Assembly (NCBI GenBank): GCA_021811535.1
Contig: JAJZOF010000020.1
Location: 106,894-170,893 of the forward strand
Direction: 5' to 3'
Source of the DNA: Candidatus Micrarchaeota archaeon
GTDB lineage: Archaea; Micrarchaeota; Micrarchaeia; Micrarchaeales; CABMGC01
Length of the DNA: 64,000 bases
The translations under genes and the position numbers were made by a program. The notes beneath the pieces are model-generated. The model saw nothing but the letters and a program-made list of their open reading frames with translations, had not been told where the DNA came from and ran no database searches. Numbering within the stretch: position 1 is the first letter of the stretch; every line of letters starts with the position of its first letter. This document shows, piece after piece, positions 7,946 through 43,143 of the stretch.

Positions 7946-9016
7946 GTGGCAGTTGCAGTTGCCGAGAGACATAAGCTAAGGGAGCTTAGCATGCTCCATA
8001 GGAAACATCTGCAGGAACATGAGAAGATGTTTGTGCATGCAAGGGATGCACATGCAGAAGAGATAGTGCCTTTCCACGAGAGCAGGGTTGACGTAGACGG
8101 ATTAAGTGTAAATTACATAGACGAAGGGCGGAAAGACGCAAAGATACTGCTTCTTGTACACGGTGGCGGTGATTCTTCTTCGTATAATTCATGGAGGCTT
8201 AACATAGAGGAACTCAGCAGGAGCTATAGGGTGATAGCACCAGACCTGCCAGGATTCGGGAAGACACAGAAACCAGACAAGAAATGCACGCTTGATTATT
8301 ATGTAAACGAATTTATGCCGAAGTTCATTGAATCAGTTGGCCTATCAGGACATAAGCTCCTCTTGGCGGGTAGTTCTATGGGAGGAGGAATAGTACTCGG
8401 CTACGCGTTAGACCATCCCGAGATGGTAGAGAAGCAGATACTTATCGGAAGCTATGGGCTTTATGACCGGTCTTTCTCAAGGCTTGCCAACAGGCTTGCA
8501 CATATGCCGCATTTCAGCTACAGGGCTTTTGAGCTCATGAGAACGCGTGCAGGAAAGGTACTTGATTTCATCGTGGGGTTGTCCCTCTTGGATGCAATAA
8601 AGGAGCATGACATGCTAGTAAACATTAAAGAAGTCAGGGAACATGATATCAGGCCGGCGTTCTTTGATTTCCTGGATGACCAGATAACCAAGAATGGGTT
8701 CAGGACAAATTACTCGAAAAGGGTAGGCGAACTCTCGGAGAACGGGATACAGACTATGATAGTGCATGGAACTGAGGATCCTCTCTTCCCCATAAAAGAC
8801 ATATTGAAAGTTGCAGAGAGGATAAAGGACTGCAGGTTCTACGAGATGAACGGATGCGGCCACAGCCCGCAGCTGAAGGATCCTGATTCATTCAATGCGA
8901 CTGTGCTCGAGTTCCTTTCGGCAGAGGCACAGGGAGCCGTAATGGAAGAGGCATCCAGAAGGAGGCACTGGCCTCTCGGAATGAAGCTATTCAGGTGGAA
9001 GTGGAGCGAGGCTTAG
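7946..9016 (+). CDS. Alpha/beta-fold hydrolase
   Basis: LLLVHGGG, nucleophile elbow GSSMGGG and C-terminal GCGH. SD-like ggtggtgga sits directly upstream of GTG 7946. Confidence 0.8.
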   Translation: MAVAVAERHKLRELSMLHRKHLQEHEKMFVHARDAHAEEIVPFHESRVDVDGLSVNYIDEGRKDAKILLLVHGGGDSSSYNSWRLNIEELSRSYRVIAPDLPGFGKTQKPDKKCTLDYYVNEFMPKFIESVGLSGHKLLLAGSSMGGGIVLGYALDHPEMVEKQILIGSYGLYDRSFSRLANRLAHMPHFSYRAFELMRTRAGKVLDFIVGLSLLDAIKEHDMLVNIKEVREHDIRPAFFDFLDDQITKNGFRTNYSKRVGELSENGIQTMIVHGTEDPLFPIKDILKVAERIKDCRFYEMNGCGHSPQLKDPDSFNATVLEFLSAEAQGAVMEEASRRRHWPLGMKLFRWKWSEA

Positions 9017-9494
9017 GCTTGCTGCCCCTTGTGTGGATGCGGCCTGCGAATAGCTTTAGCACCTTCTCGAATTCCTCTGGGGAACCGAAATTCTTGTAGA
9101 CGCTTGCGAACCTTATGTATGCGACTGGATCAAGCTTATACAGCTCGCGTATGACCATGTCGCCTATCTCCCTGCTGCTTATCTCCTTGAGCCCTTTTGA
9201 GCGTATCTTCTTTTCTATCTTTCCTACGGTAGTCTCCATGGTGGCTCTTGTTATGGTGCGCTTCTCGCATGCGCGCATTATTCCGTTAAGTATCTTGCTG
9301 CTATCGAAAGGCTGCCTGGTGCCGTCCTTCTTTATTACAGTTATATCGGCGAGATCCGCCTTCTCGTAGGTGGTGAATCTCCTCTTGCAGTATATGCACT
9401 CCCTTCTTCTTCGTATGCCTTCTCCTCCCTGCACTTCCCTTGAGTCTATGACTTCAGTGTTATCTGATCCGCAATAAAAGCATTTCATCGGCAT
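8991..9494 (-). CDS. nrdR: NrdR-type transcriptional repressor (zinc ribbon plus ATP-cone)
   Basis: MKCFYCGSDNTEVIDSRE...RRRRECIYCKRRFTTYEK is the NrdR zinc ribbon, followed by an ATP-cone. Lies 27 nt downstream of nrdJ on the same strand. Confidence 0.85.
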   Translation of the reverse strand: MPMKCFYCGSDNTEVIDSREVQGGEGIRRRRECIYCKRRFTTYEKADLADITVIKKDGTRQPFDSSKILNGIMRACEKRTITRATMETTVGKIEKKIRSKGLKEISSREIGDMVIRELYKLDPVAYIRFASVYKNFGSPEEFEKVLKLFAGRIHTRGSKPKPRSTST

Positions 9495-9521
9495 TACCGG
9501 CCCTTATAAGGGCACCTGAAC

Positions 9522-11921
9522 TCAGTCGCATTTAGTATATCCGCAGGATTTGCAGATTCCGCAGCCTCCCTCGTTCACGTAAGTCTTCTCCCTGCATGAA
9601 GGGCATTCCATCGGTTTTATTACGTGGTCCTGATGCTTTGGTATCGAGAGCTGATGGCCGTCAAGCTTTATATCGCTGTTTTCTTCTGCAAGCGGCTTTG
9701 CCACCACCAGCTTGGACTGCGCTATCATCATCTCTATGGCCTTTGCTATTGCATCAGGCACGCTATAAACCTTTATGCCGCGATCCCATGATATTGAGCT
9801 GTTTGCCTTTATGCCTTTTATGCTCTCCACTACCTCGTTCACGTCTCCGCCGATCTGAAGGTATTTGCTTATGAGTCTGCCCAGTGCCTCGCAGTAGCTC
9901 TTCTCCTCGCTGCCTGCCTTGCCCATGTTTATGAATACCTCACGTATCTGGTCGCCGTCAAAGTTTGCTGTTACGTAAAGTGATCCGTTTGGTGTGCTTA
10001 TCTTCATGGTCTTTCCGGTGAGTATGTGGTCGCGTTTCCATTCTTCCTTTGCCTTCTGTTCCGGAGTTGCCTGTACTCCTTTCTCTTTCCGGTTCTGCTC
10101 TTCCTCTGTTATCAGTATACCTTCCCTTGAGCCTTCCCTGTATACGGTAATGCCCTTGCATCCTGCCTTCCATGCCTGCATGTATATCTCCCCTACCTGC
10201 TCCGCAGTGGCTTCGCGTGGAAGGTTTACGGTAGAAGATATTGCGCTGTCTATATGCTGCTGGATTACGCCCTGCAGCTTGACCCTGAACTGGGCGTTTA
10301 TCTTGTGCGCTGGGATGAAGAAGTCTGGCAGTGAAGCCTCTTCGGATACCTGCGCGGTCTTCATGTACTCAAGCACAAGAGGATGGTAGACTTTGAAGAA
10401 CTCCTGGCTCAGCGACTCCGACCTGCGCGTATAGCTAAATGCGAATATCGGCTCTATGCCGCTTGATGTGCCTGCTAAGACCGATACGCTGCCAGTAGGC
10501 GGAACGGTAAGTATCGCCACGTTCCTCAGTCCGTGTTTGGCTATGTTGCTCCTTATGTCTTCAGGAAGGGTCTTTATGAACGGCATTGAGAGATGCTTTG
10601 CAGGATCAAAGAGAGGGAATGATCCTTTTTCCTTTGCCACCTCTATGCTCTCATCGTAGGAGAAGAGCTTGATCCTGTTGAACAGGTCATCTACCAGTGC
10701 CAGCGCTCTTTCAGTATCATACTTTATCTTCAGCTTGACCAGCATATCGGCAAGGCCTGTTATTCCAAGCCCTATCCTTCTGCTGCTCCTCGCCGCAGCA
10801 GTCTGCTCTGATAGTGGATGCTTCTGCATGTTGTATTCTAGTACATCGTCAAGGAACCTTACTCCGTATCTTACCGCCTGCTCAAGCCCATTCCAGTCTA
10901 TCGAAGCCGAGTCACTGAATGGATTCTTGACGAATGCGGAGAGGTTGACATTCCCAAGGTCGCATGCGCCATATGGCTGCAGCGGCTGCTCCGAGCAGGG
11001 GTTGGTTGTGATGACTTCCATGCCGTTGTACTCGCTTGGCGAGTATCTCTTTACAGTATCCCAGAATATGAGCCCTGGCTCTGCCCAGTCCCTTGCCGAC
11101 TTTATGAGCTCATTCCAGAGGGTCTTTGCCATTATCTTGCGCTCTATCTTCCCCACAACGCTGTTCTCGAACCTGAGGGTAAATTCACTGTCATTCTCCA
11201 CTGCCCTCATGAATTCGTCGGTTATCTTTACGCTTATGTTTGCGTACCTCACATTGCTGAGGTCCTTCTTTACGTTTATGAAGGCCATGATGTCGGGATG
11301 GTCTACATTTATCGTTATCATAAGAGCTCCGCGCCTGCCGTTCTGCCCTATAGTATGGGTTGTCTCGCTGAATATGTTCATGAATGAGACCGAGCCTGTT
11401 GAGAATATCGCCGAATTGTTTACCGGGGCTTCCCTTGGCCTTAGAATGGATATGTCCGTCCCTACTCCTCCCCCGTAACTGTATGTCCTTGCGGCTTCCT
11501 TGCACCATTGGAATATCGATTCGATGGAATCTTCCTTTATCGGTATGACGTAACAGTTCAGGAGAGTCGTCTTCCTGCCCTGGCCTGCGCCGAAGAGTAT
11601 CCTGCCTCCTGGAAGGAACCTGAAGTCGTAGAGCAGCCACTTGAATTTTTCCTGCCACTCGGTCCTCTTCTCCTCGCTCGGCTCTGCGCTGGCTATCTCG
11701 CGCGCTACCCTGTCCCACATCTCGCTAGGCACTTTCTCCACAGTGAGCCCTGTTTTGTTCTTAAGTGCATATTTCTCGTAAAAGACGCGTGAGCGTATCT
11801 CATCCCCTCCGAAGAAATCGAGGGTCTCCTTTGGAAGCCCTATCCCTTTTCCCTTCTGCTGCTCCTCTATAAACTGTGTTGATTCCTCAGAAACCGCGGC
11901 CGCCTTGTCTTTTTCCACCAT
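9522..11921 (-). CDS. nrdJ: Class II (adenosylcobalamin-dependent) ribonucleotide reductase NrdJ
   Basis: About 800 aa. Motifs NPCSEQPL and TVPPTGS, plus a C-terminal Cys-rich ribbon CPSC...CGICKSCGY. ATG 11921 is preceded by GGTGGT; an alternative GTG is at 11966. Confidence 0.9.
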   Translation of the reverse strand: MVEKDKAAAVSEESTQFIEEQQKGKGIGLPKETLDFFGGDEIRSRVFYEKYALKNKTGLTVEKVPSEMWDRVAREIASAEPSEEKRTEWQEKFKWLLYDFRFLPGGRILFGAGQGRKTTLLNCYVIPIKEDSIESIFQWCKEAARTYSYGGGVGTDISILRPREAPVNNSAIFSTGSVSFMNIFSETTHTIGQNGRRGALMITINVDHPDIMAFINVKKDLSNVRYANISVKITDEFMRAVENDSEFTLRFENSVVGKIERKIMAKTLWNELIKSARDWAEPGLIFWDTVKRYSPSEYNGMEVITTNPCSEQPLQPYGACDLGNVNLSAFVKNPFSDSASIDWNGLEQAVRYGVRFLDDVLEYNMQKHPLSEQTAAARSSRRIGLGITGLADMLVKLKIKYDTERALALVDDLFNRIKLFSYDESIEVAKEKGSFPLFDPAKHLSMPFIKTLPEDIRSNIAKHGLRNVAILTVPPTGSVSVLAGTSSGIEPIFAFSYTRRSESLSQEFFKVYHPLVLEYMKTAQVSEEASLPDFFIPAHKINAQFRVKLQGVIQQHIDSAISSTVNLPREATAEQVGEIYMQAWKAGCKGITVYREGSREGILITEEEQNRKEKGVQATPEQKAKEEWKRDHILTGKTMKISTPNGSLYVTANFDGDQIREVFINMGKAGSEEKSYCEALGRLISKYLQIGGDVNEVVESIKGIKANSSISWDRGIKVYSVPDAIAKAIEMMIAQSKLVVAKPLAEENSDIKLDGHQLSIPKHQDHVIKPMECPSCREKTYVNEGGCGICKSCGYTKCD

Positions 11922-11931
11922 GATACCACCA

Positions 11932-11978
11932 ATACAATATGTTGTGCCTGTACCCTTCAAAGGCACAAAGAGTTGTAT
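11932..11978 (-). promoter_or_regulatory. Two tandem NrdR-box-like palindromes upstream of nrdJ
   Basis: Box 1 at 11932-11947 is atACAAtatgTTGTgc. Box 2 at 11963-11978 is gcACAAagagTTGTat. Both are ACAA-N4-TTGT and start 31 bp apart; TATA-like tttataat is at 11991-11998. Confidence 0.5.
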
Positions 11979-12072
11979 TTTTAGGCAATATTTATAATAC
12001 TATCAGTCCTGCCTTTTACTTTCCTTTGCATGACTTCACATGCACATTTAAACGCTTTGCGCAAGATGCGTC

Positions 12073-12768
12073 TCAGAAGAACTCGTTGATCTTGAGCTGC
12101 CTTATTGCCTGTAGGGTCTTCCACCTGTTGCGAATATACGAAGTGGCCTTCTGATTGTCCATGTTTGCACGTATTGCCGCTATTGTGACCTTGTCTGAAG
12201 GGTACCCGGATCCGAAATCTATGCCGAGCCTGTCTTTTATCTTCTCTATCTCACGGTCCCTTGATACCTTTGCTATTATGCTCGCGCTTGAGGCTACAGG
12301 ATACCTCGAATCGGCTTTGTGCTCTGCTATTACGGTTATGGATGGATTCTTTCCCCTTGGTGAGGGCACACCCTTTATCCTCATCGACTTCTTTGAAAAG
12401 ACGCTGATCCTTATCCCGAATTTATGCGGTATTACATCAGGGGAATCTAGGTATACACGTGCGACGTCCCCGCTAAGCGAATCTATTATTGAAGCGAACT
12501 TAAGTGCCTCAAGCTGGTTCAATGATATCTTTGCAGCCATGGACCTGTTGATCTCCTCGGCATCAATGCTTATGGTCTTTACCTCTTCCGCAAGAGAGTT
12601 TATCTCGTCGAATAGAAATTCCCGTTTCCTTCTTGTGAGGAGCTTGGAGTCCCTTACGCCTATCTCGGCGAGTTTCTTCTCCCGTGCCTTGCTTATGCAA
12701 ACAACACTGACTGTTAGCGGACCTAAGACTGCGCCTCTGCCTGCCTCATCGCCGCCGGCGATGATTAT
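12073..12768 (-). CDS. rnhB: Ribonuclease HII (start codon unresolved)
   Basis: The frame is open from 12777. IIIAGGDEAGRGAVLGP (catalytic motif) is encoded at 12768-12718, but the first ATG/GTG/TTG is at 12540. The 5' limit is set at ATA 12768. Confidence 0.8.
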   Translation of the reverse strand: MIIAGGDEAGRGAVLGPLTVSVVCISKAREKKLAEIGVRDSKLLTRRKREFLFDEINSLAEEVKTISIDAEEINRSMAAKISLNQLEALKFASIIDSLSGDVARVYLDSPDVIPHKFGIRISVFSKKSMRIKGVPSPRGKNPSITVIAEHKADSRYPVASSASIIAKVSRDREIEKIKDRLGIDFGSGYPSDKVTIAAIRANMDNQKATSYIRNRWKTLQAIRQLKINEFF

Positions 12769-12777
12769 GCAATCACC

Positions 12778-13032
12778 TTAGACTACTCCCTTTTTGTCAA
12801 CAACTATGAAATCGTTTACAGCCATTACGCTCTCGTAGGGCACCTGGAGCTTCCCTGATTTTACGTTGAGCTTGTTGACGAACTCGCTGTCTACGTTCGG
12901 CTCTATTATCAGCGCGCTGAGCTTGCCGCTGGACTCGTTGACTTCTGCGTCGACAAACTTGCCCAAGTCAAAGCCATCGCTCGTGACTACTTCCTTGCCT
13001 ACTAATTGTTCTGCTATTACATATTTTACCAT
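12778..13032 (-). CDS. PRC-barrel domain protein
   Basis: 84 aa. LVGKEVVTSDGFDLGKFVDAEVNESSGKLSALIIEP is typical of PRC-barrel proteins. Confidence 0.7.
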   Translation of the reverse strand: MVKYVIAEQLVGKEVVTSDGFDLGKFVDAEVNESSGKLSALIIEPNVDSEFVNKLNVKSGKLQVPYESVMAVNDFIVVDKKGVV

Positions 13033-30422: not shown

Positions 30423-32171
30423 ATGCGGAACTACGATGTATCTATACGTATATCCGGGGCGAATGGGGACGGGATAGATTCGATAGGTTTCATGATAGGC
30501 AAGAGCCTGGCAAGGAATGGGTTGTATATATTCGGATACAGGGGTTATCAATCAGTAATAAGGGGCGGGAGCGTATGGTATCAGATAAGGGCGAGCACCG
30601 AAAAACTTTATACGCACGGAGAATACATAGACATACTTATCTCCTTTGATCTGGATGGGATAAAAAACAGCCTGGGTTTCGTGAAGGGCGGCGGGATTGT
30701 GATATATGATTCCAAGACCAATGGGGCTGATGAACTTGCTGCTTCATCAAAAATGGATATAAATTTCGTGAAGCTTCCGCTTCTCGATTCTGCAGTGAAG
30801 AGCGGAGGTGACATATACAGGAATACTGTCGCTTTCGGGATACTATCTAAAATTGTAGGGATAAAGGAAGATTTTGTAATAAAATCCATATCCGACAGAT
30901 TCAAGAAGAAGCCAGGGCTTGTTACGCCTAATGTGACTGCAGCTAAGATAGGATACGAGTTGGACTTGGGCATAGATACCACAAAATTTTACTTCGGAGA
31001 AGAAGGAGAGCCTAAGAGAAGTTATATGCTTAGCGGAAACGAGGCTATAGCGATAGGTGCTGCAGCTGCGGGGTGCAAGTTCTACGCAGCCTATCCAATG
31101 ACTCCTGCAAGCAGCATACTCGACTGGTTTGCATCGCATGAAAACCATGGGATATTATACAAACAGCCTGAGGATGAGATAACAGCAATAAACATGACTA
31201 TTGGAGCGGCGAGTGCAGGTGTGCGCGCGATGTGCGGAACAAGCGGAGGCGGGTTCTCGCTCATGGTCGAGGGTCTGGGGCTTGCTGGAATACTCGAGGT
31301 ACCTATAGTAGTTGTTGAAGCGCAGAGGAGCGGGCCTAGCACAGGGCTTCCAACGAAGACGGAGCAGGGAGACCTTCTCTTTGTCATGAACGCATCACAG
31401 GGTGAATTTCCAAGGGTTATTATAGCTCCAAGGAGCGTGGAGGAGTGCTTTTATGAAACTGGTGCGGCATTTAATATCGCTGAGAAGTACCAGTGCCCTG
31501 TAATAATACTATCGGACCTTTTCCTGTCCGAACATATAGAGAGCGTGAATATAGAACCGGAAAGGGTAAGAATAGAAAGGGGGAAGATAGCCACTGAAAA
31601 GGCAGGCGGAGACTTCAAGAGGTATCTCATTACCGAGGACGGCGTATCTCCAAGGGCTCTTCCCGGGACCAAAGGCCTTGAATTCGTCGCCCCAAGCGAC
31701 GACCACGATGAGTACGGCAACCTTATCACTGATGTTTTTGTTGGAACTCCAGAGGCTGTAGAGCTGCGGAGAAAGATGCACTCTAAGAGGATGAAGAAGC
31801 TCGAGACAATGGTGAAAAACGGCGACATAAAGATGCCTGAAGTTGTCGGTGAGGGAGCCGATGCTTACCTTGTGACCTTCGGCTCTTCGACATATGCATG
31901 CATAGAGGCCGTTGGTCTTCTTAAGGACAAAGGCATTAACGTTGGGATTATATCATTCTCTTACCTTCATCCAATGGATTCCGAGAAGGTAGAGGCGCTT
32001 CTTAGCGGCAAGAGGCTTATCGATGTGGAGAGCAATTATACAGCGCAGTTTGCGCGGCTTATAAGGATGAATACAGGAATAAATATCAAGGAAAGGATAC
32101 TCAGGTACGACGGTGAGGCATTCACCGGAGAGTATTTATGCGCGGAGGTTATGAAAATCCTTAAAGGTTGA
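30423..32171 (+). CDS. 2-oxoacid:ferredoxin oxidoreductase, alpha subunit (fused gamma-alpha type), copy 1
   Basis: 582 aa. Motifs GANGDGIDS, FYAAYPMTPAS, GGGFSLM and GPSTGLPTKTEQGDL. Confidence 0.85.
   Translation: MRNYDVSIRISGANGDGIDSIGFMIGKSLARNGLYIFGYRGYQSVIRGGSVWYQIRASTEKLYTHGEYIDILISFDLDGIKNSLGFVKGGGIVIYDSKTNGADELAASSKMDINFVKLPLLDSAVKSGGDIYRNTVAFGILSKIVGIKEDFVIKSISDRFKKKPGLVTPNVTAAKIGYELDLGIDTTKFYFGEEGEPKRSYMLSGNEAIAIGAAAAGCKFYAAYPMTPASSILDWFASHENHGILYKQPEDEITAINMTIGAASAGVRAMCGTSGGGFSLMVEGLGLAGILEVPIVVVEAQRSGPSTGLPTKTEQGDLLFVMNASQGEFPRVIIAPRSVEECFYETGAAFNIAEKYQCPVIILSDLFLSEHIESVNIEPERVRIERGKIATEKAGGDFKRYLITEDGVSPRALPGTKGLEFVAPSDDHDEYGNLITDVFVGTPEAVELRRKMHSKRMKKLETMVKNGDIKMPEVVGEGADAYLVTFGSSTYACIEAVGLLKDKGINVGIISFSYLHPMDSEKVEALLSGKRLIDVESNYTAQFARLIRMNTGINIKERILRYDGEAFTGEYLCAEVMKILKG
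31221..31291 (+). repeat. 71-nt segment with a single mismatch to 42184-42254 (core of a roughly 320-nt highly similar block between the two OFOR alpha genes)
   Basis: By-eye alignment. The exact 50-nt run agcggaggcgggttctcgctcatggtcgagggtctggggcttgctggaat occurs at 31242-31291 and 42205-42254. Confidence 0.85.
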
Positions 32172-33054: not shown

Positions 33055-33155
33055 TCCCGTTGGTGTGAGTCGAACACACAGCCTGTCGGTATCTACTGCC
33101 ATGTTACTGGAAGTGCAAACTACAGCCGACCGCTCTGCCATTGAGCTACAACGGG
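33055..33155 (-). tRNA. tRNA-Tyr (GUA) with a 29-nt intron 3' of position 37
   Basis: Acceptor CCCGTTG/CAACGGG (C1:G72) with discriminator A73. Anticodon stem GTCGG/CCGAC and loop CTGTAG|intron|A, with the intron at 33091-33119. T-arm GTGTG-TTCGACT-CACAC. Confidence 0.85.
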
Positions 33156-41026: not shown

Positions 41027-41406
41027 TTTATCAATTGTTTATATAGGGTGTTTAATTAGTTTATTAATATTGCCTTATTTAAAACTTCTTATATATGACT
41101 GTTTGTGTGCCTGTTTGGGACATATAGTATTTTCCAGATTTAATTTTAGCTTTTTGCTGGCTTATGGCTGCGATTCCCTTTTGTAGCTCCTGGTGCTTTC
41201 GCGACTGCGGATCCTTTTTTATTAAACGCGTAAGAAGCCTTTCAGAGTAAACGCAAGTATACTGTCTTGTGATAACTTATCGCATTTGGGCTATGGTCGG
41301 TGTATTTTTTGTCGATGCAGATCTGGATTCGAACGTCAGATGCATAACTCCGCCCCCATGTTTTTTAAAGTGTAGGCTCTAATCAATACCTAGAGCGTTG
41401 TTTATA

Positions 41407-43143
41407 ATGGTTAGCGTTTCTGTTAGGATTGCAGCCGCAAATGGCGACGGAATCGAATCGAGCGGTACGCTGCTTGCCAAGGCAGCTGCAAGGAAAGGAT
41501 TGCATATATTTGGATACAGAGGTTACCAATCGGTAATTCGCGGCGGCCATGTCTGGTTCAGTGTCAGGATAGCTGATGAGAAGATATACGACCATGGGGA
41601 AACGATTGATATACTTGTGGCTCTGAACCAGGATGCGGTAGACCATCAGGCTTCGCATCTTAGCAAAAATGCTTTTGTGATATATGACTCGGGAAAGATA
41701 AAGGTTGACAGGCTTGAGGGAAGAGGATTCAGGCTTCTTCCGATACCGCTCCTTGACATCGCAGTAGAGACAAGCGGCGACCCGATAGTCAGAAATGTAG
41801 TTGCCCTGGGAGCCGTAATGAAGATAACAGGCATAGGGACGGATACGCTGCACCAGATACTAAAGGAGACGTTCGGGAAGAAAGGTGACAAGATAGTCGA
41901 GCAGAATGTCAAGGCGGCGGACAGAGGATACGGATACGAAGGCGTTGAGACTGCATTCAGCCTTAAGTCCGATAATAAGAAGCTTTATGTTATGGATGGA
42001 AACACTGCGTTATCCATAGGTGCATATTCTGCAGGATGTAAGTTCTACGCAGCCTATCCAATGACTCCTGCGAGCAGCATATTGCATTGGTTTGCTGCTC
42101 ATGAGGACAAAGGAGTCTTTGTGAAGCAGACAGAAGATGAGATTGCGGCAATAAACATGACTATCGGAGCGGCGAGCGCCGGCGTGCGCGCGATGTGCGG
42201 AACGAGCGGAGGCGGGTTCTCGCTCATGGTCGAGGGTCTGGGGCTTGCTGGAATGATAGAGGCGCCGATAGTTGTTGTCGAGTCCCAAAGAACGGGGCCT
42301 AGCACAGGGCTTCCTACGAAGACGGAGCAGGGAGACCTTCTCTTTGTCATGAACGCATCGCAGGGGGAGTTCCCTCGCATAGTCGCTGCGCCTAGAGATG
42401 TGGAAGAGTGTTTTTATGTAGGAAAGCAGGCTTTCAACTTGGCAGAGAAGTACCAGTGCCCTGTAGTGATAATGTCAGACCTGTTTCTCTCTGAACATAT
42501 AGAGAGCGTAGAGTCTTTCGATATTGATAGGGTTGGCATAGACAGGGGAAAGATAGCAACTGCTGTTCAAGATGGCAGGTTCAAGAGGTATCTGCTCACT
42601 GAAGACGGCATATCCCCAAGGTCAATACCTGGAACGGCTGGCCTTGAGTTCACAGCTGCGAGTGATGAACATAATGAGTATGGAGACCTAGTAAGCGATG
42701 TTTTATCCGGGATAGATGAGCATGTGGAGATGCGCAACAAGATGCACTCGAAGAGGATGAGGAAGCTCGAGACCATGCTCAAGAATGAGTCCTGCTTTGT
42801 TCCAAGTGTGGAGAGCAGCTCGGGGAGCCACTCGCTCGTATGTTTTGGATCTACAACGGAAGCCTCAAGGGAGGCAGTAAAGATACTAAAATCAAAAGGC
42901 ATAGATGTAGGTTTGATATCGTTCAATTATCTGCTCCCTCTTGACAGGAAGGCGACTACAGATGCGCTGAAGGGAAAGAAGCTGATAGACGTAGAGGTTA
43001 ATTATACTTCGCAACTTGCGCAGATAATAAAGCTGTGCACAGGGATAGATGTGGATTACAAGATAAACAAATACGATGGAGAGGCAATAACTGGAGAGGA
43101 GATTGCCAGGAAAGCAGAACAGATAATTAAAGGTGTAGTGTAA
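41407..43143 (+). CDS. 2-oxoacid:ferredoxin oxidoreductase, alpha subunit, copy 2
   Basis: Paralogue of 30423-32171 with the same motifs. ATG 41407 is preferred over TTG 41398. Confidence 0.85.
   Translation: MVSVSVRIAAANGDGIESSGTLLAKAAARKGLHIFGYRGYQSVIRGGHVWFSVRIADEKIYDHGETIDILVALNQDAVDHQASHLSKNAFVIYDSGKIKVDRLEGRGFRLLPIPLLDIAVETSGDPIVRNVVALGAVMKITGIGTDTLHQILKETFGKKGDKIVEQNVKAADRGYGYEGVETAFSLKSDNKKLYVMDGNTALSIGAYSAGCKFYAAYPMTPASSILHWFAAHEDKGVFVKQTEDEIAAINMTIGAASAGVRAMCGTSGGGFSLMVEGLGLAGMIEAPIVVVESQRTGPSTGLPTKTEQGDLLFVMNASQGEFPRIVAAPRDVEECFYVGKQAFNLAEKYQCPVVIMSDLFLSEHIESVESFDIDRVGIDRGKIATAVQDGRFKRYLLTEDGISPRSIPGTAGLEFTAASDEHNEYGDLVSDVLSGIDEHVEMRNKMHSKRMRKLETMLKNESCFVPSVESSSGSHSLVCFGSTTEASREAVKILKSKGIDVGLISFNYLLPLDRKATTDALKGKKLIDVEVNYTSQLAQIIKLCTGIDVDYKINKYDGEAITGEEIARKAEQIIKGVV
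42184..42254 (+). repeat. 71-nt segment with a single mismatch to 31221-31291
   Basis: See 31221-31291. Confidence 0.85.

What the first reader, a model, noticed from the sequence alone, without database searches (positions are those of the whole stretch)
8991..11978. Bacterial-type NrdR repressor in an archaeal nrdJ-nrdR operon with tandem NrdR-box-like palindromes
NrdR (zinc ribbon CFYC...CIYC plus ATP-cone) is, to my knowledge, essentially a bacterial regulator. Here it sits 27 nt downstream of a class II RNR gene on the same strand.

Upstream of nrdJ there are two 16-bp sites, atACAAtatgTTGTgc (11932-11947) and gcACAAagagTTGTat (11963-11978). Both have an ACAA-N4-TTGT inverted-repeat core and start exactly 31 bp apart, about three helical turns.

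This matches the bacterial arrangement of paired NrdR boxes, whose consensus I recall from memory as approximately acaCwAtATaTwGtgt. By that recalled consensus, box 1 matches about 13 of 16 positions and box 2 about 10 of 16.

The sites lie between a TATA-like element (11991-11998) and the SD/ATG. A bacterial repressor would thus be acting on an archaeal promoter.
Basis: partly seen in the sequence, partly recalled or inferred. Interest (0 to 1): 0.55.

Follow-up and report, generated by a model that had tools for sequence, protein, structure and literature searches.

The report
Archaeal NrdR operator on RNR operon
A small archaeon (Micrarchaeota type) carries the well-known dATP-sensing repressor NrdR next to its ribonucleotide reductase gene, with the repressor's usual pair of DNA sites placed just after the archaeal TATA box; this is real and conserved, but NrdR in archaea is already known, so it is a tidy example and not a surprise.

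Summary
On the minus strand, nrdJ (9522-11921) and nrdR (8991-9494) form a tight operon. It is preceded by a TATA box (11989-11996) and two 16-bp palindromes (11963-11978 and 11932-11947) with a 15-bp linker.

These are the only two ACAA-N4-TTGT sites in the 64 kb. Both carry the critical NrdR-box positions C4, A6, T11 and G13.

In 15 of 15 related archaeal loci where the RNR operon's 5' end is available, exactly one such pair lies at that 5' end. This is true whether the order is nrdJ-nrdR, nrdR-nrdJ or nrdJ alone. A TATA box lies 3-18 nt upstream in 14 of the 15 loci. The distal box therefore covers the stretch between the TATA box and the predicted start site.

The most likely mechanism is dATP/ATP-loaded NrdR blocking RNA polymerase recruitment, with nrdR autoregulated as part of the operon.

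NrdR is reported in 22% of archaeal genomes. In a rough tree this protein sits in a clade of more than 130 sequences that holds every archaeal-context locus sampled and no bacteria-labelled locus, with conserved PRC-RNase HII-nrd synteny. It is already annotated as NrdR in public databases.

Verdict: a new member of a known kind, of modest interest. The operator geometry on an archaeal promoter and the divergent centre of the distal box seem undescribed in the literature I could search.

The parts
9522..11921 (-). nrdJ: class II (adenosylcobalamin-dependent) ribonucleotide reductase, 799 aa, with no ATP-cone of its own
   Evidence: TIGR02504 scores 560 bits against a cutoff of 400. Pfam finds Ribonuc_red_lgN, lgC and TSCPD. 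The ATG at 11921 is supported by homologues that align from residue 1 at their called starts. The GTG at 11966 listed lies inside the distal box and is not the start.
8991..9494 (-). nrdR: Zn-ribbon plus ATP-cone repressor, 167 aa (165 aa if it starts at the second ATG, 9488)
   Evidence: TIGR00244 equivalog scores 181 bits against a cutoff of 124.65. Pfam finds PF22811 and PF03477. E-values against solved E. coli and S. coelicolor NrdR structures are 1e-37 to 1e-32. CxxC motifs are at residues 3/6 and 31/34. DNA-contact residues D15, R17, R26-29 and R37 are conserved (residue roles from PMC9110341).
9495..9521 (-). nrdJ-nrdR spacer of 27 nt, with no oligo-T tract; contains the palindrome GCCCTTATAAGGGC (9513-9500)
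   Evidence: Read directly. Co-transcription is an inference from the short spacer and the lack of a T-run.
11963..11978 (-). Distal NrdR box ATACAACTCTTTGTGC. It has C4, A6, T11 and G13, but its centre is TC instead of AT. The predicted transcription start lies inside it.
   Evidence: It matches 4 of the 6 highly conserved positions. AT content at positions 5-12 is 75%, above the published lower limit of 63% (PMC13584703). It fails the published regex at position 9.
11948..11962 (-). 15-bp linker between the boxes; not conserved in sequence
   Evidence: The alignment of 12 archaeal operators shows no conservation in the linker. The published preferred length is 15-16 bp (PMC13584703, PMC12051234).
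11932..11947 (-). Proximal NrdR box GCACAACATATTGTAT, with all six conserved positions (C4, A6, A8, T9, T11, G13)
   Evidence: It matches 13/16 positions of the consensus, matches the published regex, and is 88% AT at positions 5-12.
11989..11996 (-). TATA box TATAAATA, 10 nt upstream of the distal box
   Evidence: It matches 7 of 8 positions of TTTAWATA. An equivalent element scoring 7-8 of 8 occurs upstream of the distal box in 12 of 12 relatives scored and is visible in the 3 added.
11926..11930 (-). Shine-Dalgarno-like GGTGG, 4 nt before the nrdJ ATG
   Evidence: Read directly. Its function is inferred.

Best explanation
This is a working NrdR operator on an archaeal TATA promoter, driving an autoregulated nrdJ-nrdR operon in a Micrarchaeota-type archaeon.

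The proposed mechanism follows the one shown for bacterial NrdR. When dATP rises relative to ATP, NrdR loaded with dATP plus ATP forms a tetramer. The Zn-ribbons of the tetramer bind the two 16-bp boxes, whose centres lie about three helical turns apart.

Here the distal box starts 10 nt after the TATA box and covers the predicted transcription start. The proximal box lies at about +20 to +35. Bound NrdR would therefore let TBP/TFB sit on the TATA box but block RNA polymerase recruitment or promoter opening, and would also act as a roadblock.

Repression lowers both the reductase and NrdR itself, giving negative feedback on dNTP supply. NrdJ in this window has no ATP-cone, so NrdR would be its only dATP-sensing overall control.

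Shown here: gene identities, the box pair and its non-random occurrence, its conservation and position across relatives, and conservation of the DNA-contact residues.

Inferred: DNA binding, nucleotide dependence, the TSS position, co-transcription and the step that is blocked.
For: 1. The protein meets the NrdR equivalog model and both domain models. It keeps D15, R17, R26-29 and R37, which contact DNA in the S. coelicolor cryo-EM structure (PMC9110341).

2. The boxes carry C4, A6, T11 and G13 in both copies, and A8/T9 in the proximal one. The linker is 15 bp, and published optimal binding is at 15-17 bp (PMC12051234, PMC13584703). AT content between C4 and G13 is 75% and 88%, above the published lower limit of 63%.

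3. There is only one such pair in the 64 kb. Background is at most 3 per 852 kb.

4. In 15 of 15 archaeal relatives with the RNR operon's 5' end available, each has exactly one comparably scoring pair (summed score 22 or more) in up to 20 kb, always directly upstream of the first gene. The arrangements seen are:
- nrdJ-nrdR: window, L084, L116, L125
- nrdR-nrdJ: L095, L096, L105, L123, L124
- nrdJ with nrdR encoded separately nearby: L083, L086, L088, L115, L117
- nrdJ with no nrdR in the 3-kb contig held: L087
So the boxes follow the promoter, not a particular gene.

5. A3 and T14 were not required by the search, yet are invariant in all 30 boxes. The linker is unconserved.

6. A strong TATA box lies 3-18 nt upstream of the distal box in 14 of 15 loci.

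7. Bacterial-type loci in the same data set instead interleave the boxes with TTGAC and TAGAAT hexamers.
Against: There is no experimental evidence for any archaeal NrdR.

The distal box lacks the conserved central AT (it has TC) and fails the published box regex.

Position 12 of the protein, a backbone-contacting R or K in the studied bacterial proteins, is E here.

The TSS is only predicted from TATA geometry. A second TATA-like element at 12052-12045 could be an alternative promoter, which would put both boxes in the transcribed leader.

C4, A6, T11 and G13 were search criteria, so their invariance across relatives is partly by construction.
Confidence: 0.85

Rival explanations
1. The palindromes are bound by a different archaeal regulator, or are part of the core promoter or initiator, and their likeness to NrdR boxes is coincidental.
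For: The central positions of the distal box differ from the bacterial consensus. Many archaeal regulators bind palindromes just downstream of the TATA box (established knowledge).
Against: The pair keeps all four critical NrdR positions in both boxes, plus A3 and T14, in 30 of 30 boxes. It keeps the diagnostic 15-16 bp unconserved linker. It occurs once per locus and only at RNR/nrdR operons. No other pair exists in the 64-kb window, so it is not a general promoter element.
Confidence: 0.05
2. The two boxes act at the RNA level. Being near-inverted copies of each other, they form a 5' leader hairpin that controls translation or stability.
For: In the window, the distal and proximal boxes can pair over 6 + 8 bp, with a minimum free energy of -13.3 kcal/mol.
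Against: Folding is no better than shuffled sequence, with z-scores of -1.04, -0.29, -1.12 and +0.12 in the four sequences folded (two spans of the window leader, L084, L117). Inter-box pairing across 12 operators is 71.9% against 69.6% in shuffles, with 51 of 500 shuffles reaching that value. It therefore follows from each box matching one palindromic consensus. The predicted TSS lies inside the distal box, so the 5' arm would not be fully transcribed.
Confidence: 0.03
3. NrdR binds here but does not work as in bacteria. It could act as an activator or use a different nucleotide logic, or it could be a recent bacterial import not yet integrated with the archaeal machinery.
For: No archaeal NrdR has been studied. 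Residue 12 is acidic instead of basic. The box centre differs from the bacterial consensus.
Against: The operator position, between the TATA box and the start codon, is the classic position for archaeal repressors, not activators (established knowledge). A full-length ATP-cone is present. The clade is large, has conserved synteny and contains no bacteria-labelled locus, which argues against a recent import.
Confidence: 0.07

Closest known systems
Streptomyces coelicolor NrdR and its nrdRJ operator (cryo-EM structure 7P3F; PMC9110341)
   Same: Both have a Zn-ribbon plus ATP-cone repressor encoded in one operon with a class II RNR. Both have two partially palindromic 16-bp boxes with a 15-bp linker that overlap the start site, and both are autoregulated. 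The DNA-contact residues D15, R17, R26-29 and R37 are conserved.
   Different: The gene order here is nrdJ-nrdR (nrdR-nrdJ in some relatives). The promoter is TATA-dependent and archaeal, not sigma-70 -35/-10. Residue 12 is E, not R. The distal box has a TC centre. Protein identity to bacterial NrdRs is at most about 53%.
Haloarchaeal nrdR-nrdAB operons (PMC3019208)
   Same: nrdR is encoded next to RNR genes in an archaeon.
   Different: Those are class I operons. The paper infers that the class I RNR genes in these operons came from bacteria (two independent transfers into Halobacteriales). Here a class II enzyme sits in a DPANN-type lineage where nrdR is widespread and syntenic. In the rough tree, other DPANN NrdRs (Woesearchaeota, Nanobdellati) branch apart from this clade.
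Archaeal repressors that bind just downstream of the TATA box and block RNAP recruitment (for example MDR1, LrpA, Phr; from established knowledge, not tested here)
   Same: The operator lies between the TATA box and the start of the gene, overlapping the predicted TSS. A bacterial-type DNA-binding protein works on a eukaryote-like basal machinery.
   Different: NrdR uses a Zn-ribbon rather than a helix-turn-helix. It needs two boxes three helical turns apart. Its effector is the dATP/ATP ratio, sensed by an ATP-cone.

Membership tests
NrdR protein family (TIGR00244 / COG1327) | N-terminal Zn-ribbon with two CxxC motifs | tested here: met
   PF22811 E = 5.6e-19. C5/C8 and C33/C36 of the 167-aa form are invariant in 33 relatives.
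NrdR protein family (TIGR00244 / COG1327) | ATP-cone domain directly after the Zn-ribbon | tested here: met
   PF03477 E = 1.8e-24, covering profile positions 1-85 of 88.
NrdR protein family (TIGR00244 / COG1327) | Whole-protein score above the curated equivalog cutoff | tested here: met
   181.4 bits against a cutoff of 124.65. E-values against solved NrdR structures are 1e-37 to 1e-32.
NrdR protein family (TIGR00244 / COG1327) | DNA-contact residues of the solved complex (R12, D15, R17, R26-29, R37 in S. coelicolor numbering; PMC9110341) | tested here: met
   D15, R17, R26-29 and R37 are present and invariant in the archaeal clade. Position 12 is E instead of R or K. That is seven of eight residues.
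NrdR protein family (TIGR00244 / COG1327) | dATP+ATP-dependent tetramerisation and DNA binding | not testable with these tools
   Needs purified protein (MST or EMSA, SEC).
NrdR operator (pair of NrdR boxes) | Two 16-bp partially palindromic boxes with C4 and G13, the positions critical for binding | tested here: met
   Both boxes have C4, A6, T11 and G13.
NrdR operator (pair of NrdR boxes) | Conserved central A8-T9, or at least 63% AT between C4 and G13 (PMC13584703) | tested here: met
   The proximal box has AT at the centre and 88% AT. The distal box has TC at the centre but 75% AT. The distal box fails the strict published regex, so this is met only under the relaxed AT-content criterion.
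NrdR operator (pair of NrdR boxes) | Linker of 15-16 bp (14-17 tolerated), not conserved in sequence | tested here: met
   The linker is 15 bp in the window and 15-16 bp in all 15 archaeal operators. Linker columns are unconserved in the 12 operators aligned.
NrdR operator (pair of NrdR boxes) | Located in the promoter of an RNR operon, overlapping the polymerase binding or start site | tested here: inconclusive
   It lies directly upstream of nrdJ, 10 nt after a TATA box. Overlap with the TSS is predicted from TATA geometry only. No TSS data are available.
NrdR operator (pair of NrdR boxes) | Conserved upstream of RNR operons in relatives that carry nrdR | tested here: met
   15 of 15 archaeal loci.
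Class II RNR (NrdJ) | Score above the curated cutoff for adenosylcobalamin-dependent RNR | tested here: met
   TIGR02504 scores 560.4 bits against a cutoff of 399.95.

The most novel reading that the evidence does not exclude
This would be the first operator-level picture of NrdR in Archaea.

In Micrarchaeota the box pair is systematically placed 3-18 nt downstream of a TATA box (one exception at 30 nt). NrdR would therefore act after TBP/TFB binding, by excluding RNA polymerase. That is a different molecular target from the sigma-70 hexamers it masks in bacteria.

The lineage also uses a variant box, AYACWA-N4-TWGTGK, with a relaxed centre especially in the TSS-overlapping distal box. The published bacterial regex would miss 9 of the 15 pairs. 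Archaeal NrdR regulons may therefore be under-counted.

The size and synteny of the clade would also allow an old, possibly pre-DPANN-radiation, acquisition of NrdR rather than a recent transfer.
Probability: 0.45. Interest if true: 0.45.

Novelty: new member of a known kind. Interest (0 to 1): 0.3.

Why it matters
All mechanistic work on NrdR is bacterial, yet the repressor is reported in about a fifth of archaeal genomes. This locus and its 15 relatives give a clean, conserved test case for how a Zn-ribbon/ATP-cone repressor is wired into a TATA/TBP/TFB promoter.

They also show that the bacterial search pattern for NrdR boxes is too strict for this lineage. For genome-reduced DPANN archaea, which have few regulators, it identifies one of the few predictable regulator-operator pairs, and it controls dNTP supply.

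It does not change the understanding of NrdR or of archaeal transcription.

Tried and rejected
It served as a background set and outgroup, but gave no Micrarchaeota genomes with names.

2. RNA hairpin between the two boxes: rejected. Folding z-scores are not significant and there is no covariation beyond column composition.

3. Helical phasing between the TATA box and the distal box. After 12 loci the gaps fell into 7-10 nt and 16-18 nt classes. Three more loci added gaps of 3 and 30 nt, so the idea was dropped.

4. Complementarity between NrdR and an ATP-cone on the reductase. NrdJ here lacks an ATP-cone, but the deeper relatives L123 and L124 and the Nanobdellati locus L072 have both NrdR and an ATP-cone NrdJ. 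There is no clean either/or pattern.

5. A separate nrdR promoter in the 27-nt spacer. The TTATAA inside GCCCTTATAAGGGC is only about 18 nt from the ATG, too close for a TATA box, so this was not pursued.

6. Strain-level polymorphism in the operator: L120-L122 are identical to the window, so this was uninformative.

7. The 2026 MMBR review on NrdR (PMC13602944), which may discuss archaeal distribution, is not held in the library.


Full report
WHAT IS THERE

Both genes lie on the minus strand. The 799-aa product of 9522-11921 is a class II ribonucleotide reductase. It scores 560 bits on TIGR02504 against a cutoff of 400, and Pfam finds Ribonuc_red_lgN, lgC and TSCPD but no ATP-cone.

Twenty-seven nucleotides after its stop codon begins a 167-aa ORF (8991-9494). 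This ORF passes the curated NrdR equivalog model (TIGR00244, 181 bits against a cutoff of 124.65). It has the NrdR Zn-ribbon (PF22811) followed by a full ATP-cone (PF03477). All homologues start at M-[KR]-C-P, so the second ATG (9488) is the likelier start.

The spacer has no oligo-T tract, so co-transcription is plausible. That step is an inference.

Upstream of nrdJ, the coding strand reads: TATAAATA (11996-11989), 10 nt, ATACAACTCTTTGTGC (11978-11963), a 15-nt linker, GCACAACATATTGTAT (11947-11932), t-GGTGG-tatc, ATG (11921).

The GTG 'start' at 11966 in the mechanical ORF list falls inside the distal box. Homologues align from the ATG, which contradicts that start.

IS IT MORE THAN CHANCE?

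ACAA-N4-TTGT occurs twice in the 64 kb, both times here, against 0.62 expected per window.

It required C4, A6, T11 and G13 in two 16-mers whose starts are 30-33 bp apart. It finds exactly one pair in the window. It finds only three pairs of comparable score in 852 kb of bacterial nrdR-flanking DNA, and those may themselves be real sites.

The promoter is identical in three other assemblies from different samples. It is therefore not an assembly artefact.

WHOSE GENOME IS IT?

The window encodes Nop56/58 (PF01798), DUF2070 and a CDC48-type AAA ATPase, and it carries a 101-nt tRNA that only the covariance model finds, implying an intron. It is archaeal.

Outside the window's own population (99%), the best NrdR hits are 57-71% identical and, where a source names them, are called Micrarchaeota, Micrarchaeia or 'Marsarchaeota'.

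The loci I fetched for them carry PolD, PolB, RadA, MCM, Spt4/5, Rpb7, LSM, Topo VI-B and ribosomal proteins L19e and L32e.

COMPARISON WITH PUBLISHED NrdR SITES

The literature defines the site as two partially palindromic 16-bp boxes separated by 15-16 unconserved bp. C4, A6, A8, T9, T11 and G13 are highly conserved. C4 and G13 are critical. The central AT is dispensable provided at least 63% of positions 5-12 are A/T (PMC13584703; PMC9110341; PMC12051234).

- The proximal box meets all six conserved positions and is 88% AT.
- The distal box meets four of the six, has a TC centre and is 75% AT.
- The linker is 15 bp.
- The distal box fails the strict published regex C.[AT].[AT][AT].[AT].G.

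On the protein side, D15, R17, R26-29 and R37 contact DNA in the S. coelicolor complex (PMC9110341). All are present and invariant in 33 archaeal relatives. Position 12, which is R or K in the studied bacteria, is E.

CONSERVATION IN RELATIVES

This was the decisive test. Related loci came from two routes: NrdJ-based retrieval from metagenomes and NrdR-based look-ups.

Fifteen archaeal loci, counting the window, include the 5' end of the RNR operon. Every one has exactly one comparably scoring pair (summed score 22 or more) in up to 20 kb, directly upstream of the first gene.

The gene arrangement varies:
- nrdJ-nrdR in the window, L084, L116 and L125.
- nrdR-nrdJ in L095, L096, L105, L123 and L124.
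- nrdJ alone, with nrdR encoded separately nearby, in L083, L086, L088, L115 and L117.
- nrdJ alone, with no nrdR in the 3-kb contig held, in L087.

The boxes always sit at the promoter, not next to a particular gene.

A3 and T14 were not required by my search, yet are invariant in all 30 boxes. The linker is unconserved. Loci that contain nrdR but no RNR gene (L081, L082, L118, L119) have no pair.

The archaeal consensus is roughly AYACWATATGTTGTGK for the proximal box and AYACTACAYWTWGTGN for the distal box. Only 6 of the 15 pairs satisfy the published regex. Three of the first twelve do; the three loci I checked by eye.

PROMOTER GEOMETRY

All twelve operators scored have a TTTAWATA match of 7-8 out of 8 upstream of the distal box. 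The three added do as well.

The gap between the TATA box and the distal box is 3 nt (L123, L124), 7-10 nt (window and six others), 16-18 nt (five loci) or 30 nt (L125).

If the archaeal TATA box is centred about 26-28 nt upstream of the start site (established knowledge; PMC8553660), the predicted start falls inside or next to the distal box in 14 of 15 loci. The proximal box then lies in the early transcribed region, a few nucleotides before the start codon.

In the same data set, loci with bacterial-type promoters (L090, L092, L093, L099, L101) interleave the boxes with TTGAC and TAGAAT hexamers. So the same operator is used in two promoter grammars. In both it covers the place where the polymerase must land.

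MECHANISM

The best explanation is the bacterial mechanism transplanted to an archaeal promoter. At a high dATP/ATP ratio, a dATP+ATP-loaded tetramer binds both boxes (PMC9110341, PMC13584703).

Here that would leave the TATA box free for TBP/TFB but block RNA polymerase recruitment or promoter opening, which is the usual mode of archaeal repressors. nrdR is repressed along with nrdJ.

Binding, nucleotide dependence, the TSS and the blocked step are all inferred.

RIVALS

An RNA hairpin between the two boxes is not supported. Folding z-scores are -1.04, -0.29, -1.12 and +0.12. Inter-box pairing is 71.9% against 69.6% in shuffles.

A different regulator or a core-promoter element is unlikely. 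The pair is unique in the 64 kb, specific to RNR operons, and keeps the NrdR-specific spacing.

A non-canonical role for archaeal NrdR cannot be excluded without experiments.

NOVELTY

One 2025 preprint still says it has no archaeal orthologues (10.1101/2025.03.28.645925). [quoted passage not shown] Haloarchaeal nrdR-nrdAB operons were listed in 2010 (PMC3019208).

This exact protein is already named 'transcriptional repressor NrdR' by JGI and occurs on at least 20 contigs.

I built a rough neighbour-joining tree with no support values. Its sampling is biased toward top hits. In it, the window, 13 archaeal-context loci and all 120 top hits form one clade with no bacteria-labelled locus. Woesearchaeota and Nanobdellati NrdRs branch elsewhere, among bacteria.

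One member of that clade carries a bacterial label at the source: P0047, 'Saccharimonadales'. In the alignment it resembles P0091, which lies in a clearly archaeal context, so the label is probably a mis-binning.

PRC-barrel-RNase HII-(nrdR/nrdJ) synteny runs through the whole clade.

I found no paper in the searchable library that combines NrdR with TATA boxes, archaeal promoters or DPANN lineages. The published box surveys are explicitly bacterial (PMC13584703). The operator geometry and the variant box may therefore be undescribed. I could not read the 2026 MMBR review.

VERDICT

The cross-domain surprise is not supported. This is a new member of a known kind. Interest is 0.3.

Noticed in passing
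window 12073-12759 (minus strand): The RNase HII gene matches its Pfam profile over its full length (positions 1-198 of 199) only when translated from 12759. There is no ATG, GTG or TTG before residue 74 of the profile. The frame opens right after the stop of the PRC-barrel gene (12778-13032) and reads ATA ATC ATC GCC GGC GGC GAT GAG (IIIAGGDEAGRG). The same 'stop, then ATA ATC ATC' arrangement is seen in L081 and L082, where gene callers also report a truncated protein of about 155 aa. This suggests a non-canonical ATA/ATC start or a re-initiation coupled to the PRC gene.
   Followed up: partly
window 33055-33155 (minus strand): Rfam finds a 101-nt tRNA match (56.7 bits) that ARAGORN does not call. 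It is probably an intron-containing archaeal tRNA.
   Followed up: no
window 12045-12052 (minus strand): A second TATA-like element, TTTAAATG, lies just after the RNase HII stop and about 66 nt upstream of the distal NrdR box. If it is used, both boxes would lie in the transcribed leader.
   Followed up: no
window 9500-9513: A perfect 14-bp palindrome, GCCCTTATAAGGGC, sits in the 27-nt nrdJ-nrdR spacer. It is too close to the nrdR ATG to be a TATA box. Its function is unknown.
   Followed up: no
window 8991-9016: The 3' end of nrdR overlaps by 26 nt the 3' end of a convergent alpha/beta-hydrolase gene (7946-9016, plus strand). The same hydrolase is a neighbour of nrdR in L084 and L085.
   Followed up: no
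L095 2662-6150, L096, L117 11148-14624, L093, L099, L101: Several related NrdJ genes are about 1.1 kb longer because of an insertion in the catalytic domain. In L117 Pfam finds intein and LAGLIDADG domains. The window's nrdJ has no intein.
   Followed up: no
L123 10471-12759 and L124 10475-12745: Deeper-branching Micrarchaeia relatives have nrdR-nrdJ order. Their NrdJ carries its own N-terminal ATP-cone and lacks the TSCPD tail. In that branch, NrdR and an ATP-cone on the enzyme therefore coexist.
   Followed up: partly
P0047 (NCBI HUB92472.1) and L119: An NrdR labelled 'Candidatus Saccharimonadales bacterium' falls inside the archaeal clade. A similar sequence, P0091, sits in an archaeal context (Topo VI-B, Spt5, PRC-RNase HII). 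The bacterial label is probably a mis-binned contig.
   Followed up: partly
L072 5838-5914: A Nanobdellati (DPANN) nrdR-nrdJ locus has two good NrdR boxes only 29 bp apart, a 13-bp linker that is shorter than the published 14-17 bp range. A third box-like site overlaps its TATA region.
   Followed up: no
window 30423-32171 and 41398-43143 (plus strand): Two paralogous fused 2-oxoacid:ferredoxin oxidoreductase genes (POR plus POR_N domains) lie 9 kb apart.
   Followed up: no
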